DNA of 64,000 bases from Eledone cirrhosa (lineage: Eukaryota): NCBI GenBank assembly GCA_964016885.1, contig OZ024741.1:286502001-286566000 (forward strand), read 5' to 3'. The notes beneath the pieces were generated by a model. That model did no database searches. It was not told the DNA's origin and saw nothing but the letters and a program-made list of their open reading frames with translations. The position numbers and the translations under genes were made by a program. Shown here one piece after another: positions 8,668 to 27,946 of this stretch. Numbering within the stretch: position 1 is the first letter of the stretch; every line of letters starts with the position of its first letter.

Positions 8668-8910
8668 TAGGAACGAGTAGGACCCCGACGGCTGAGCTCA
8701 AGCCGTTTCGACGGGTAATTTTTTTTTTTTTTTTTTTTTTTTTTTTTTTAGTCCAGAATTAGCCGTCGAAACGGCTTGAGCTCAGCCGTCGAAACGGCTT
8801 GAGCTCAGCCGTCGGGGTCCTACTCGTTCCTATTACCCACTCTACTACCCTAAGTATTGAGTACTTTGGTGCGTTATGGTCCACCTGGTTCCTTACCACA
8901 TTTCCTTCGT
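8668..8910 (+). mobile_element. Fold-back family A, copy 2 (poly-T at the fold-back point, internal duplication)
   Basis: Arms taggaacgagtaggacccc / ggggtcctactcgttccta; T-run 8718-8749. Confidence 0.9.
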
Positions 8911-9072
8911 TATATATATATATATACATATCTCTGTGTGTAGGTGTATTTGTGTGTACTTATGTATATAAAGATATATATATATATATATATATATATA
9001 TATATATATATATATATACTGTGTGTGTATATATATATATATATATATATATATATATATATATATATATAT

Positions 9073-9845
9073 AACCATTTAATAGATTGACGTGCGATCC
9101 GATTAAAATAACAGGAATATTCGTTCCTGCTATATTAATCTCTTCAGAATCTATTTAATGACATTAATAATTGTTTCTACTTTTGGCACAAGGCCAGCAA
9201 TTACCTCAGTACATTACTGGTACTTTATTTTATCGACCCCGTAAGGATGAAAGGCAAAGTTGACCTCGGCGGGATTTGAACTCAGACCATAAAGGGCCGT
9301 AACTCTTTGCTACAAAGCATGGCGTCAGACCCTCTACCGATACTGCCAATACCAACACATGTCCAGAAGACAATGACAGAAATCCGAAAATGTAAACATA
9401 TTCAAATACTTATTTTCGGATTTCTGTGATCGCCTTATGGACATGTGTTGGTAAATACGTCCCTTTACGGACTGAGTTCAAATCCCACCGAGGTTAACTT
9501 TGCCTTTCATCGTTTCGGGGTCGATAAAATAAAGTACCAGTAATGTACTGAGGTAATTACTGGCCGTCTGCTAGAAGTAGAAACAATTATTAAATAGATT
9601 CTGAAGAGATTAATATAGCTGGAATGAATATTCCTGTTATTTTAATCGAAACTTTCGTCAATCAATTAAAAGGTTTAATTTAAATCCTGATTATGTTTTT
9701 TATGCATTTATATATATTCTGTGATATTGTAAAACTACTGTGAAATTTATCGATTAGATTAAACTCTGAACTGTCTCTTACCTATATTGGTGTGAACAAT
9801 AACATTGAGCGTTGAAATATTCTTTGCATTTATATATTATCTAAA
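9073..9845 (+). mobile_element. HHR-bearing fold-back family C with two SINEs nested symmetrically
   Basis: Arms 9073-9159/9589-9675; minus-strand SINE 9165-9350; hairpin 9351-9452; plus-strand SINE 9455-9590. Confidence 0.7.
9594..9666 (+). ncRNA. Type I hammerhead ribozyme motif with long stem II
   Basis: gatt-CTGAAGA(9601)-gattaa..ttaatc-GAAA(9648)-ctttcg-TC-aatc; GUC triplet. Confidence 0.75.
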
Positions 9846-12234
9846 CGTTTATGCATACATACATACATGCACACACATATGTATATATATATATATATAT
9901 ATGTGTGTGTGTGTATATATATATATATATGTATATATATATATATACATATAAATGTATGTATGCATGTATGTATATGTATATATGTATGTATATATGT
10001 ATATATATATATATATATATATATATACATATATACATATATACAAAATTGTGTAGGACATATATCCACGTATAAACATATATATATATATATGTGTATA
10101 TATATATATGTATATATATATATATGTATATATATATATATATGTATATATATATATATGTATATATATATCCGCGTATATACATATATATATATATATA
10201 TATACATGTATGTATATATTTAATTTATATTTATATATATGTGTGTGTGTGTGTGTGTGTGTGTGTGTGTGTGTGTGTGTGTGTGTGTGTGTGTGTGTGT
10301 GTGTGTGTGTGTGTGTGTGTGTGTGTGTGTGTGTGTGTGTGTGTGTGCGTGCGTGCGTGCGTGTGTGTGCGTGTGTGTGTCTGCGTGCGTGTGTATGTAT
10401 ATATATATATTCAACGGAATTCCGCGCAGTTTCCGTCTACCAAATTTCACTCTCTACTCGAAGGTATAATAGAATACATTTACCCACCGACTGAATCCGA
10501 ACCCATAAGGTTACGAAGTTAACTAATTAACCACATAGTTATTATTTTTGTCTATCCCATTTTTAAGATAGTTAGACTGGGCTCGAAAAGGATTTGAGTG
10601 CTACTTCTAGCAGATTAATCAACGATGTAGTGTCCACCTCTTTGGCTTGTTAAAAGGCATGAATGCTATGTTTGAATATCTTTAGGAGAAAAACTTCCAA
10701 ACTTTCTAAACAAGTATTTTGTCGGAGAAACAGTAAAGATTTATTTGTTTGGTTGTTGTTGTTGCTCTTGTTGATGTTGTTTTTGTTGCTGCTCTGTGAG
10801 TGTGGGGGGGGATGCTTGTGTGTGTGTTTGTGCGTGTGTGTGTGTTCGTGTGTGCGTGTCTATGTACTTTGACTATGGACACAATAATACTTTTTCTAGG
10901 CCTGGCAATGTGTTTTGAAGGAAATTATTTTAAGTATGTATGTGTGTATGTATCTGTATGTGTTTGTGTGTGCGACACGGAGGATGCAAACGAAATCTTT
11001 TCCTTTTTTCCATCGAAGGAATCGGTCCAAAACGTCAGGAAATTAATCTCCAACGATATATTAACTTTAAAAACAAACTTTATTTCTTATAAAAGCCATT
11101 ACTAATTCTCCTGCATGTTAGTTTTAAACCTACACTTATGTTTGGCGTAAACTTTAGTCAGTGATAATAATAGTTAACAACATAATTTATATAATTCCCT
11201 ATATCTAAAGTATATTGATATTTAAAACAGACGCAGTCAAGGCTGTACAATTAAGAGGTATCTATTATCAACTTCATCTTTTCGCAGCTGTATAAAAAAA
11301 AATAACATTACAAAATGTTTATAATTATTACAGAATGAAAATATAAACATCAAAAATATATATAATTAATTATTTGGAGGAACCTTATAAATATAAAAGT
11401 ACAAAAGTATATAACCAAAGCGAGAGGAAAAAAACAAAACTCAATTCAACACTACGTACAGTAATAGCTCACCTGCACATTATATTTGATGATTGAATTT
11501 ACAGTCTTCAACCGATCGAAACCTATGTTAACCTCTAGCTCCACTGTTAATTACTAAATACTTATCTCTTAGCGGAATGGTCCGTCAAATAGGCTCGATG
11601 CCAAGGTTAGCGGGGTGGTAATACTGGATAGTACTGCCACCACCCCTATATCTAAATGGAGCACCCTCAGATTTAAAAAATAGAGTTTATAAAAAAAACT
11701 ACCAAAATATCTTCCTTGCAAATGAGCTATCCGCCCACCCCACCAACCTCAGAATATTCTTAAACCAACACCTCCTCCCCGCCCTTATGCGAGAACCTAA
11801 TTCTGGCGACGGGCCTGCCGCCAAGTTCTGTAAATTCCTATCACGAGCCAACGAGGGGGCTTCTGTGTAGTCACTCGATCTGCTATTAATAGCAACCAAA
11901 TTTCTTTCAAAGCACATTTTGCGGCATTTGAATTACACGTGTTTATGAAATACTCAAAACCAGTTACATATTAATTCAGGAGTTGGATGTTCAGTTGATC
12001 GAACAACTGAATGATCTTCGTCGACATTGATGGAGACTCTATCGTAATCATTGTGTGTTATATGGTATGTCTGTGTTGTAGTCAACCCTCTATATTACAT
12101 GGTATTAGTCTATGGATGTTATCTGTCATCTGTTTTGTATTATATATGGTGTGTTTATAATGAATTTTATACGGCTCTATCAAAGAGAGATAATTTCAAT
12201 GTTTTTGACACTTAATTATTCATTCTAACACTCT

Positions 12235-12450
12235 CTAACATTGGCACAAGGCTACCATTTTGGTAAAAGAAGCAATTTGATTATATTGACTGTACGTATT
12301 TGACAGTCACTTTTATTTTATCGACCCCTGAATGAAAGGCTAAGTTTACCTCGGCATGATTTGAACTCTGCCGTAACTAAAGGCAATAACTAAACACCAC
12401 AAAGTATTTTGTTCAACGCACTACCGTTACTACCAATCCACCGCCATTTT
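12235..12450 (-). mobile_element. tRNA-derived SINE
   Basis: Reverse complement of the SINE body (tttatcgacccc..gaaaggc..atttgaactc). Confidence 0.75.
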
Positions 12451-12574
12451 GAAACTAAACAATAAAAAATGGTTTCCAGAAATTAAAGACAACAGAACGT
12501 ATATAGTGTGTATTTCATTGTATTGTGTGGTGTGGTATATGTTGCACAGGTTGTATAGAACTAGCTCAATAATG

Positions 12575-12815
12575 ATCGAGCAGGCTTATGATGAAAAGAG
12601 ATCCCAAAACACACCAATCCAAATCGAGCAGGCTTATGATGAAAAGGGATCCCAAAACACACCAATCCAAATCGAGCAGGCTTATGATGAAAAGGGATCC
12701 CAAAACACACCAATCCAAATCGAGCAGGCTTATGATGAAAAGGGATCCCAAAACACACCAATCCAAATCGAGCAGGCTTATGATGAAAAGGGATCCCAAA
12801 ACGCACCAATCCAAA
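12575..12815. repeat. 48-bp minisatellite, about 5 copies
   Basis: Unit atcgagcaggcttatgatgaaaagggatcccaaaacacaccaatccaa. Confidence 0.95.
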
Positions 12816-13055
12816 TCCTAATTCTTTCATTGGTCAGCGAAATCTTAGACGCCGTTTTTTTACAATATGTTTTAATAATTTCCAAAAATCTTGTCTGCTA
12901 CTCCTAGCAGGGCAAGTGACTACGTAGAGGCACCCGTGTTAATTCGCATGCCATTGATGTTCTTGTTGTTTTTGCTTACACACGGTTCAACCCTGAAACC
13001 TAGACTTATGATCTAAAGCATTTGTCACGACTATCCAGGGTTATTTATGTATATA

Positions 13056-26510: not shown

Positions 26511-26550
26511 TATATATATATATATATATATATATATATATATATATATA

Positions 26551-26742
26551 TAGGAACCAGTAAGACCCCGACAGCTGAGCTCAAGCCGTTTCGACGGCTA
26601 ATTCTGGACAGAATTAGCCGTCGAAACGGCTTGAGCTCAGCTGTCGGGGTCTTACTGGTCCCTATTACCCACTCTACTACCTCAAGTATTGAGTACTTTG
26701 GTGCGTTATGGTCCACCTGGTTCCTTACCACATTTCCTTCGT
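26551..26742 (+). mobile_element. Fold-back family A, copy 6
   Basis: Arms plus tail as in copy 1. Confidence 0.9.
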
Positions 26743-27000
26743 TATATATATATATATATATGCGTATATATATATATATACGTATATATATATATATATA
26801 CGTATATGCGTATATATATATATATATATATACGTATATATATATATACGTATATACGTATATATATATATATATATATATAGAGAGAGAGAGAGAGAGA
26901 GAGAGAGAGAGAGAGAGAGAGAGAGAGAGAGAGATATGTCCTAAGGCTCTGATACCATCAAAACCATAAACACAAAGCTGGCATATCTAAGAACTGACTA

Positions 27001-27056
27001 ACTGCCTGATGAGGTCATAGCCATTCAATGGCTATCTTCGAAATATATATAGCAGT
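27001..27056 (+). ncRNA. Minimal type I hammerhead motif (family F, second copy, within element 26940-27102)
   Basis: actgc-CTGATGA(27006)-..-GAAA(27040)-tatata-TA-gcagt. Confidence 0.75.
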
Positions 27057-27381
27057 AAATAAAGGATTAGGAGTTCATGCAATTGACTTATGTTTCGTCA
27101 CTATATATATATATATATATATATATATATATATATATATATATATATATATATATATATATATATATATATATATACGTATATATACCTATAAATATAT
27201 ATATATATACATATACATATACATATAAATATATTTACATATATATATATATATAAAAAACATTTATATATATATAAATATGTATATATATATATATAGA
27301 TATATATATATATATATAAATATATATATATGTGTATGTATATGTATATATATATATATATATATATATATATATATATAT

Positions 27382-27540
27382 AAAGTGTGGTAAGGAACCA
27401 GGTGGACCATAACGCACCAGAGTACTCGATACTTAGGGTAGTAGAGTGGGTAATAGGAAAAGAGTCAGGACCCGACGTTCGGATCTAGCTGTCGAAACGG
27501 CCGGAGCTCAGCCGTCGGCGGGGTGCTGACTCTTTTCCTA
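27382..27540 (-). mobile_element. Fold-back family A, copy 7 (subfamily variant)
   Basis: taggaaaagagtcag / ctgactcttttccta arms plus tail. Confidence 0.82.
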
Positions 27541-27733
27541 TATATATATATATATATATACATATATATATACATATATATATATACATCTTTATTTATA
27601 TATTATATATATATACATATGTATATATATATGTGTGTGTGTGTGGTTACCCCCGATTGAACCCGGGATAAACCTATCTTATATATATATATATATATAT
27701 ATATAGATATATATATATATATATATATATATA

Positions 27734-27946
27734 TAGGAACCAGTAAGACCCCGACGGCTGAGCTCAAGCCGTTTCCACGGCTAATTTTTTTTTTTTTTTT
27801 TTTTTTTTAGTCCAGAATTAGCCGTCGAAACGGCTTGAGCTCAGCCGTCGGGGTCTTACTGGTTCCTATTACCCACTCTACTACCCTAAGTATTGAGTAC
27901 TTTGGTGCGTTATGGTCCACCTGGTTCCTTACCACATTTCCTTCGT
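27734..27946 (+). mobile_element. Fold-back family A, copy 8 (poly-T at the fold-back point)
   Basis: T-run 27785-27808 between the arms. Confidence 0.9.

What the first reader, a model, noticed from the sequence alone, without database searches (positions are those of the whole stretch)
8700..27830. Poly(T) at the hairpin apex in two family A copies suggests untemplated A-tailing of cDNA before snap-back
Seen: copy 2 has cgggtaa-T32-agtccagaattagccg (8718-8749) and copy 8 has cggctaa-T24-agtccagaattagccg (27785-27808). The two differ in arm sequence, so they look independent. On the presumed cDNA strand this reads ..aattctggact-(A)n-ttagccg..: an A-run added at the template end whose last As can pair with the TT of 'aattc' to prime copy-back. 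Other copies have different short junctions. Inference: terminal-transferase-like activity of a telomerase-related PLE reverse transcriptase, recorded in the genome.
Basis: inference. Interest (0 to 1): 0.7.

Follow-up and report, generated by a model that had tools for sequence, protein, structure and literature searches.

The report
Poly(T) filler at retroelement hairpin tip
Two copies of a small hairpin-shaped mobile element carry a long run of T at the hairpin tip, a real scar of how the two halves were joined during insertion, but the sequence cannot tell whether an enzyme added it without a template or copied it from an RNA's poly(A) tail.

Summary
In detail: T31 (8719-8749, not T32) and T24 (27785-27808), the two longest homopolymers in the window, sit at the same junction in 2 of 11 copies of a 124-241 bp head-to-head fold-back element in (TA)n. 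There is no target duplication. Both runs continue the element's own TT and abut the fixed 5' end.

On the bottom strand it is an A-run on a cDNA end. On the top strand it is a T-run grown from a 3'-TT primer, the ordinary product of copying poly(A). No Penelope ORF was found in the window, and family A lacks a hammerhead core, so the enzyme is unassigned.

New point: the fixed 5' end lies only in the long arm in 5 copies, only in the short arm in 4, in both in 1 and in neither in 1. The short-arm class cannot come from one target-primed cDNA snapping back. It fits two target-primed cDNAs joined head to head. Best reading (0.4): an A-run laid on the full-length cDNA end at insertion, by untemplated A plus stutter on the TT. 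Poly(A)-templated T follows (0.25).

The parts
8670..8720 (-). Copy 2 short arm (inverted copy of unit positions 58 to 8); ends in the element's own TT; one mismatch to the long arm at 8715
8719..8749 (+). T31 run at the apex of copy 2 (2 T belong to the arm, 29 are extra)
8750..8830 (+). Copy 2 long arm, hairpin part, starting at the fixed 5' end; holds a 23-nt tandem duplication (8761-8814) absent from the short arm
8831..8910 (+). Copy 2 one-sided 80-nt tail, then (TA)n
27736..27786 (-). Copy 8 short arm; ends in the same TT; one mismatch to the long arm at 27776
27785..27808 (+). T24 run at the apex of copy 8 (22 extra T)
27809..27866 (+). Copy 8 long arm, hairpin part; includes a GAAA-stem-GUC half of a hammerhead without the CUGANGA half
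   Evidence: half-core reading is by eye
27867..27946 (+). Copy 8 tail, then (TA)n
8150..8328 (+). Copy 1, class I (5' end in long arm only), 1-2 nt overlap, no filler; last 104 nt identical to copy 8
23246..23444 (-). Copy 3, perfect 59-bp palindrome around a single base; 5' end in both arms
24651..24809 (-). Copy 4, class II (5' end in short arm only)
25360..25483 (-). Copy 5, both arms truncated; 11-nt filler that copies its own arm
26553..26742 (+). Copy 6, class II
27383..27538 (-). Copy 7, class II, divergent subfamily
28789..28949 (+). Copy 9, class I, about 9-nt filler and an internal deletion
31640..31813 (+). Copy 10, class II
42830..43022 (+). Copy 11, class I, 4-nt loop
19296..20587 (+). 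Comparator family: inverted short arm plus 2.4 tandem 466-bp units with a hammerhead motif in each full unit (19774, 20240); class II apex with a 7-nt overlap

Best explanation
Family A is a short non-coding retroelement of Penelope-type architecture that inserts in (TA)n. SHOWN: both arms of a copy come from one template lineage; one arm keeps a fixed 5' end while the other is cut back to a site with 1-2 nt of overlap; either arm can be the intact one; the T-runs join that fixed end to the element's TT. INFERRED: both target strands prime a cDNA on the element RNA, one from the tail end and one from an internal start. Both run to the RNA 5' end. The full-length 3' end of one lands on a micro-match in the other, whose excess is trimmed, giving the head-to-head hairpin. 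In copies 2 and 8 the long cDNA ended at the RNA 5' end, gained one or more untemplated A, paired with the nearest TT seven bases away, and the run grew to 22-29 extra nt by further A addition or, more likely for a pure run, by stuttering on that TT before normal extension resumed. The enzyme is not identified. My guess is the mobilising RT about 60:40 over a host end-joining polymerase such as Pol theta.
For: Fixed end in 10 of 11 copies: long arm only in 5, short arm only in 4, both in 1. All 4 short-arm copies end at the same base and resume after a 1-nt C overlap (for copies 4, 6, 10; read for copy 7). Over the outer 16 nt, each of 11 short arms matches its own long arm as well as or better than any other, except copy 6 (1 mismatch to its own, 0 to copies 1, 3, 8) and copy 9 (2 to its own, tie); copy 11 ties with copy 5 at 3; copy 2's two private changes are mirrored. 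Both T copies stop at the same TT (3 of 58 positions), in the pattern 'intact end primes, other arm is trimmed' seen in the other copies. Copy 3 has one extra base between two full-length ends, A on the long-cDNA strand. An unrelated hammerhead-bearing tandem family shows the short-arm class with a 7-nt overlap. A purified PLE protein cuts and extends both target strands, starts at two internal RNA sites matching the tail, and is modelled as a dimer (PMC11167929). Tailing followed by snap-back, primed by even one A/T pair, is shown for group II intron-like RTs (10.1101/2022.03.14.484287).
Against: n = 2, one window, no reads. A pure 22-29 nt run is long for untemplated addition (PMC2837659). 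The mirror product (A-run after a full-length short arm) is seen in 0 of 4 class II copies. 0 of 9 other-family hairpin apices carry a run over 6 nt. The extra base in copy 3 may be templated, and copy 11's can be read as a variant first base. No PLE coding match in the window; no CUGANGA core in 11 of 11 family A copies. LINE fragments in this window also sit in (TA)n, so the target is not diagnostic. The sense direction is inferred from neighbouring families and the half-core, not from RNA data. The passages of PMC11167929 that I searched report no untemplated additions.
Confidence: 0.4

Rival explanations
1. Templated T-run. The short-arm cDNA, ending in TT, hops onto a poly(A) tail (the unused 3' tail of its own RNA or another mRNA), copies 22-29 nt and is then joined end to end to the intact long cDNA. 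No long untemplated synthesis is needed.
For: Polarity is that of ordinary priming on poly(A) from a 3'-TT end. Length and purity suit a poly(A) template. L1 insertions with 5' poly(T) were explained by twin or dual priming on poly(A) (PMC2837659). PLE reverse transcription starts internally, leaving the RNA 3' part free, and a PLE transcript with poly(A) is described (PMC8557442). The filler in copy 5 also reads as an RNA-templated hop of the short arm. Copy 3 shows that end-to-end joins occur.
Against: Needs two switches, and the short arm must stop or be trimmed at the same TT twice. In the other copies the intact end is the apparent primer. No RNA body sequence follows the run. Family A has no AATAAA/ATTAAA on either strand, so its own poly(A) tail is not shown.
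Confidence: 0.25
2. Host repair after insertion. The element inserts as a near-perfect palindrome like copy 3, later breaks at the centre (cruciform or hairpin nicking), and is rejoined with asymmetric deletion and fillers; the T-run is a patch made by Pol theta or by a LINE RT priming on poly(A) at the break.
For: Explains both apex classes without two cDNAs. Pol theta mixes templated and untemplated fillers and snap-back (PMC4912351); copy 5's filler copies nearby sequence. Solitary poly(A) insertions from truncated retrotransposition are described (10.1101/2024.08.27.596794). LINE RT fragments are in the window. Centre-break revision of palindromes is recalled; one search gave only a search listing.
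Against: One arm stays intact to within about 2 nt of the fixed end in 10 of 11 copies, which two-sided end processing would not favour. Copies 1, 2 and 8 have 0-1 arm mismatches, so asymmetry arose at or soon after insertion. Copy 3 and a 147-bp palindrome with a 1-nt loop (20745-21039) survive unrevised. Pol theta's untemplated additions are described as random sequence, not homopolymer. No target duplication.
Confidence: 0.15
3. Antisense RNA with a poly(A) tail self-primes: the tail's last A's pair with UU seven bases upstream, and the run is an ordinary RNA poly(A) tail copied into DNA.
For: The run has the orientation of a poly(A) tail on an antisense transcript. Self-priming on an antisense template was proposed for head-to-head Penelope palindromes (PMC3846280).
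Against: No polyadenylation signal on the antisense strand. The antisense 3' end would have to coincide with the boundary used by copies without a run. In both T copies the antisense arm is the long, target-attached one, which is awkward for an RNA primer. In vitro a PLE uses target DNA as primer.
Confidence: 0.08
4. Sequencing or assembly artefact at a hairpin tip.
For: No reads seen. Both copies lie on the + strand, so a strand-bound artefact is not excluded. Each has one C/G mismatch within 10 nt of the run.
Against: Tighter and longer hairpins in the same window (copy 3; 147-bp arms with a 1-nt loop; 132-bp arms) are resolved with no run. Both runs begin at the element's TT and end at the fixed boundary. 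Nearby tandem units are 100% identical.
Confidence: 0.07
5. Inherited: the run arose once in a parent copy and was passed on with the whole palindrome.
For: Copy 8 has the ancestral sequence and copy 2 differs by only 2 changes, so one T-bearing ancestor fits the tree.
Against: Copy 2's changes are mirrored in both arms, so its arms were rebuilt after they arose. The template boundary is sharp in 10 of 11 copies, so sequence upstream of it seems not to be copied. The near-apex mismatches differ between the two copies.
Confidence: 0.05

Closest known systems
Penelope-like elements (EN+ PLEs): inverted, 5'-truncated pLTR head to head with the main copy, one-sided tail, (TA)n targets (PMC8557442, PMC3846280, PMC11167929)
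   Same: Head-to-head inverted arm, tail on one side only, (TA)n target with no discernible duplication, palindrome at the junction; neighbouring families of the same build carry type I hammerhead motifs reading outward from the apex.
   Different: Family A is 124-241 bp with no ORF; its tail is about 80 nt against 30-40 described; it has no CUGANGA core. I found no report of a homopolymer at a PLE inverted junction in the passages read or in searches.
L1 insertions with 5' poly(T) by twin or dual priming (PMC2837659)
   Same: T-run directly upstream of the sense strand's 5' end; two priming events proposed.
   Different: There the run abuts the target flank inside a target duplication; here it lies between two inverted arms, continues an internal TT, and has no duplication.
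Snap-back 5' junctions of R2 protein insertions (PMC11371274)
   Same: cDNA 3' end primes synthesis complementary to the cDNA, often after full-length cDNA.
   Different: Single cDNA; the passages read mention no long homopolymer; cannot give the short-arm class seen here.
'Terminal transferase to snap-back' by group II intron-like RTs (10.1101/2022.03.14.484287) and Pol theta (PMC4912351)
   Same: Untemplated 3' additions followed by priming on 1-2 bp micro-matches.
   Different: In vitro, Mn-stimulated, bacterial RTs or a host polymerase; not shown for a PLE RT; additions not described as long pure A-runs in the passages read.
Animal non-LTR retrozymes as non-autonomous PLE derivatives (10.64898/2026.07.22.740005)
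   Same: Short non-coding repeats tied to PLE pLTRs; the 466-bp tandem family in this window fits.
   Different: Family A is not tandem here and has no complete hammerhead.

Membership tests
Penelope-like element (EN+), non-autonomous derivative | PLE-clade RT encoded by the element or by a partner sharing its 3' end | tested here: inconclusive
   No ORF in family A. Pfam on 126 of 210 candidate frames found RVT_1 only at 15741-17039 and 39853-40227, which I read as LINE-type from recalled motifs. The partner may lie outside the window; no eukaryotic genome collection was available.
Penelope-like element (EN+), non-autonomous derivative | GIY-YIG endonuclease | tested here: inconclusive
   No match among 126 frames; absence is expected for a non-coding derivative.
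Penelope-like element (EN+), non-autonomous derivative | Inverted 5'-truncated copy head to head with the main copy | tested here: met
   11 of 11 copies have an inverted short arm. That it is head to head rests on inferred sense direction.
Penelope-like element (EN+), non-autonomous derivative | Tail extension on one end only | tested here: met
   11 of 11 copies, 62-82 nt; longer than the 30-40 bp in PMC8557442.
Penelope-like element (EN+), non-autonomous derivative | Type I hammerhead motif in the pLTR (absent in Naiad and most Chlamys) | tested here: not met
   0 of 11 copies have a CUGANGA-type core; only a GAAA-stem-GUC half by eye. 11 motifs occur in other families of the window against 0-1 in controls. 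Rfam gathering scan: 0 hits.
Penelope-like element (EN+), non-autonomous derivative | Insertion bias for AT-rich or (TA)n sites | tested here: met
   11 of 11 copies flanked by (TA)n on both sides; not diagnostic, since LINE fragments share it.
LINE-type poly(A) insertion into the apex | Target-site duplication around the run | tested here: not met
   No repeat of 4 nt or more across either run.
TIR-bounded MITE (cut and paste, TA duplication) | Unit bounded by the inverted repeats, moving without outside sequence | tested here: not met
   All 11 hairpins carry the same tail outside the inverted repeat; no tail-less or tail-only copy was found.
RT terminal-transferase product | Template-independent dA addition by the mobilising RT | not testable with these tools
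   Needs the enzyme; sequence alone cannot separate untemplated A, stutter on TT and poly(A)-templated T.

The most novel reading that the evidence does not exclude
A telomerase-related PLE reverse transcriptase, working as a dimer, primes a cDNA from each target strand and fuses the two head to head; at the RNA 5' end it lays down 20-30 dA, untemplated or by telomerase-like reiteration on a two-base template, to find a landing site. The genome's hairpin tips would then be a readable record of the unexplained step that makes inverted pLTRs.
Probability: 0.2. Interest if true: 0.65.

Novelty: new variant of a known kind. Interest (0 to 1): 0.42.

Why it matters
How Penelope-like elements form their inverted ends is described as unresolved (PMC8557442; PMC11167929). 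Tiny, numerous copies with a fixed 5' end make the joining step countable. The two mirror-image apex classes already argue against simple single-strand snap-back of a target-primed cDNA, and the T-runs give a direct test between untemplated tailing and poly(A) capture. If the RT makes the run, it would be a new activity for a telomerase relative, seen in vivo. If poly(A) is the template, it is the PLE counterpart of a known L1 twin-priming scar and of modest interest.

Tried and rejected
Bacterial and archaeal genome collection, two exact-pattern scans for stray family A copies: 0 loci each. Rfam: 0 hits at gathering score; the E-value scan of 8100-45000 gave 410 matches, of which the 150 listed were almost all hairpin or microsatellite matches to microRNA models, uninformative. 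Folding the unit as RNA showed no unusual stability on either strand (z 0.62 and 0.04). I tested whether the used TT is the only accessible one on the cDNA: it is not; the more distant TTT is as open or more so (unpaired 0.73-0.96 against 0.61-0.77), so accessibility does not explain the choice; proximity might. The promoter and terminator scan is bacterial and irrelevant; its one terminator-like hit is the hairpin plus T-run. The automatic junction parse mis-registered copies 2, 5, 7 and 9; these were read and re-classed. Apex search of other families: 15 regions given, 13 rows returned, 4 low-score rows (13 or less) dropped, 9 kept. A loop at 19009-19151 was translated to look for a PLE C-terminus: short, with stops, inconclusive. 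Rejected by polarity: long cDNA jumping onto poly(A), and circularised poly(A) RNA. Rejected: LINE insertion with target duplication; MITE. Post-insertion growth from TT alone is unlikely: no other A/T run exceeds 13 nt. Supplements of PMC11167929 gave 7,325 characters of text and no hits; their figures, which may show junction sequences, could not be seen. Supplements of the bioRxiv papers were not available.

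
Full report
Observation. Both runs are in the sequence: 31 T at 8719-8749 and 24 T at 27785-27808. They are the longest A/T runs in the window, the next being 13 nt, and the junction motif occurs twice against none in 100 shuffles. The window is AT-rich, microsatellite-laden eukaryotic DNA; a resemblance of one repeat to cephalopod SINEs is recalled and untested.

The family. BLAST with copy 2 finds 11 loci, matched by 11 of 12 tail-motif hits (the twelfth has 3 mismatches and lies outside any copy). Each is (TA)n, a short arm, an apex, a long arm that is the inverse of the short arm plus a 62-82 nt tail, then (TA)n. 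Arms within a copy share subfamily variants, including two changes private to copy 2, so arms are rebuilt from one template lineage. The same build occurs in at least nine other hairpins. A scan found 11 type I hammerhead-like motifs in bases 1-57100 against 0 in the reversed sequence and 0-1 in 20 shuffles; where they lie in a hairpin arm at 18938/19174, 20821/20926, 44456/44643 and 9597 they read outward from the apex (the eleventh hit, at 53492, is a weak parse across an apex). This matches the head-to-head inverted pLTR with a one-sided tail described for Penelope-like elements (PMC8557442, passages; PMC3846280, passages and section 6; hammerheads in PMC4209133, passages). Family A itself has no CUGANGA core in any copy, only a GAAA-stem-GUC half seen by eye. 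Pfam on 126 of 210 candidate frames gave no GIY-YIG and only two RVT_1 matches, which I read as LINE-type from recalled motifs. So family A is built like a non-autonomous PLE; membership is not established.

Apex anatomy. Taking the first base after the T-run as unit position 1, the 5'-terminal segment is in the long arm only in copies 1, 2, 8, 9, 11; in the short arm only in copies 4, 6, 7, 10; in both in copy 3; in neither in copy 5. The four short-arm copies all end at position 2 and resume after a one-base C overlap at positions 5, 15, 38 and 38. An unrelated tandem family with hammerheads (19296-20587) shows the same class with a 7-nt overlap. A target-primed cDNA that folds back on itself can only give the long-arm class, because a short first strand holds no template for the tail. 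Copy 2 adds a second difficulty: its long arm has a 23-nt duplication that the short arm lacks, though later slippage could also do that. Two target-primed cDNAs joined at their 3' ends give both classes and the perfect palindrome of copy 3. This is inference, but it fits the only purified PLE, which cuts and extends both strands, starts at two internal sites that match the tail, and is modelled as a dimer (PMC11167929, parts 1-2 of 4 read). A full hairpin trimmed at either end, or centre-break repair after insertion, would also give both classes.

The T-run. In both copies it joins position 1 to the element's own TT at positions 8-9, one of 3 TT-ending positions in 58. There is no target duplication. 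Polarity excludes the two simplest templated routes, a jump of the long cDNA onto poly(A) and a circular poly(A) RNA, since both put A on the sense strand. But the junction has two readings. Bottom strand: full-length cDNA end, A-run, landing on TT. Top strand: short arm ending in TT, T-run, join to the intact end. The second is the usual chemistry of an RT on poly(A), and L1 insertions with 5' poly(T) were explained this way, with untemplated addition judged too short (PMC2837659, parts 1 and 3 of 6 read). Snap-back after full-length cDNA is also seen with R2 proteins in cells (PMC11371274, passages). A pure run of 22-29 nt is easier to get by stuttering on the TT once one A has paired than by free tailing; the two leave the same sequence.

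Results against my reading. No mirror-image A-run in 0 of 4 short-arm copies; no run over 6 nt in 9 other-family apices (2 of 11 against 0 of 9 is not a significant difference); the used TT is not more accessible than the distant TTT; copy 11's extra T can be a variant first base; and the independence of copies 2 and 8 is favoured but not shown, since copy 8 has the ancestral sequence. Each T copy has one C/G mismatch between arms within 10 nt of the run (8715, 27776); this could be error-prone early extension or base-calling error.

Artefact. Unlikely but untested: longer and tighter hairpins in the same window carry no run. Both copies are on the + strand, and no reads were available.

Literature. 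Ten searches were run. Those aimed at PLE junctions returned no paper whose listing or read passages report homopolymers at PLE inverted junctions; the library lacks most subscription papers, so this is weak evidence of novelty. Also seen: 10.64898/2026.07.22.740005 (part 1 of 5), PMC5625713 (passages, not informative for this family), 10.1101/2024.08.27.596794 (passages). Centre-break repair of palindromes and cap-templated C addition are recalled, not read.

Verdict. A real, small insertion scar in a PLE-like element; a new variant of known junction fillers. A-run on the cDNA end at insertion 0.40; poly(A)-templated T 0.25; host repair after insertion 0.15; antisense poly(A) RNA 0.08; artefact 0.07; inherited 0.05. 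The specific claim that a PLE RT acts as a terminal transferase is possible but not shown (about 0.2 with the two-cDNA model). The more robust result is the pair of mirror-image apex classes. Interest 0.42.

Noticed in passing
window 9597-53542 (11 sites): Type I hammerhead-like motifs in at least six other repeat families, most in the arms of fold-back elements in (TA)n; 0-1 in shuffled controls and none reaching Rfam gathering scores. Two more partial or variant cores were seen by eye or (27001, 26390 region).
   Followed up: partly
window 19296-20587: Retrozyme-like array: 2.4 identical 466-bp units with a minimal hammerhead, preceded by an inverted arm whose junction has a 7-nt overlap; the clearest example of the short-arm apex class.
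   Followed up: partly
window 28820-28836 (copy 9 apex): The filler contains a 7-nt word matching the vertebrate-type telomere repeat (recalled) and overlapping the first two bases of the long arm; the word occurs 4 times in 57 kb. Post hoc, one case; could be chance or extension of the short-arm end by telomerase.
   Followed up: partly
window 25445-25460 (copy 5 apex): An 11-nt filler is a 10-of-11 copy of the element's own outer arm, like a templated insertion.
   Followed up: partly
window 8190, 23385, 42884 (copies 1, 3, 11): A G can be read just before the fixed 5' end in three copies; it may be a cap-templated base, which would mark a capped RNA starting at this boundary.
   Followed up: no
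window 20745-21039: 147-bp perfect palindrome around a single base, with a variant hammerhead core in each arm; a second case, with copy 3, of two full ends joined across one base.
   Followed up: partly
window 9074-9674: Fold-back whose arms run from a hammerhead-bearing segment into two inverted copies of an abundant SINE-like repeat, suggesting mobilisation of neighbouring sequence.
   Followed up: no
window 15798-17159, 44170-44265, 47570-47670 and 31550-31580: LINE with RVT_1 (RTE-like by recalled motifs) sitting in (TA)n, with two more 3' ends; a 15-nt word near its 3' end resembles the start of the tail of the hairpin at 31407-31557.
   Followed up: partly
window about 38000-41430: Decayed LINE with an RVT_1 match at 39853-40227; looks R4/Dong-like from recalled motifs.
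   Followed up: no
window 49386-49682: Pif1 helicase 2B domain match on the minus strand (E 2e-15), probably a Helitron fragment.
   Followed up: no
window 57162-64000: 42-bp satellite, at least 162 copies, about 95% matches, with higher-order blocks; each unit holds a telomere-like 9-nt word, so it may be subtelomeric.
   Followed up: no
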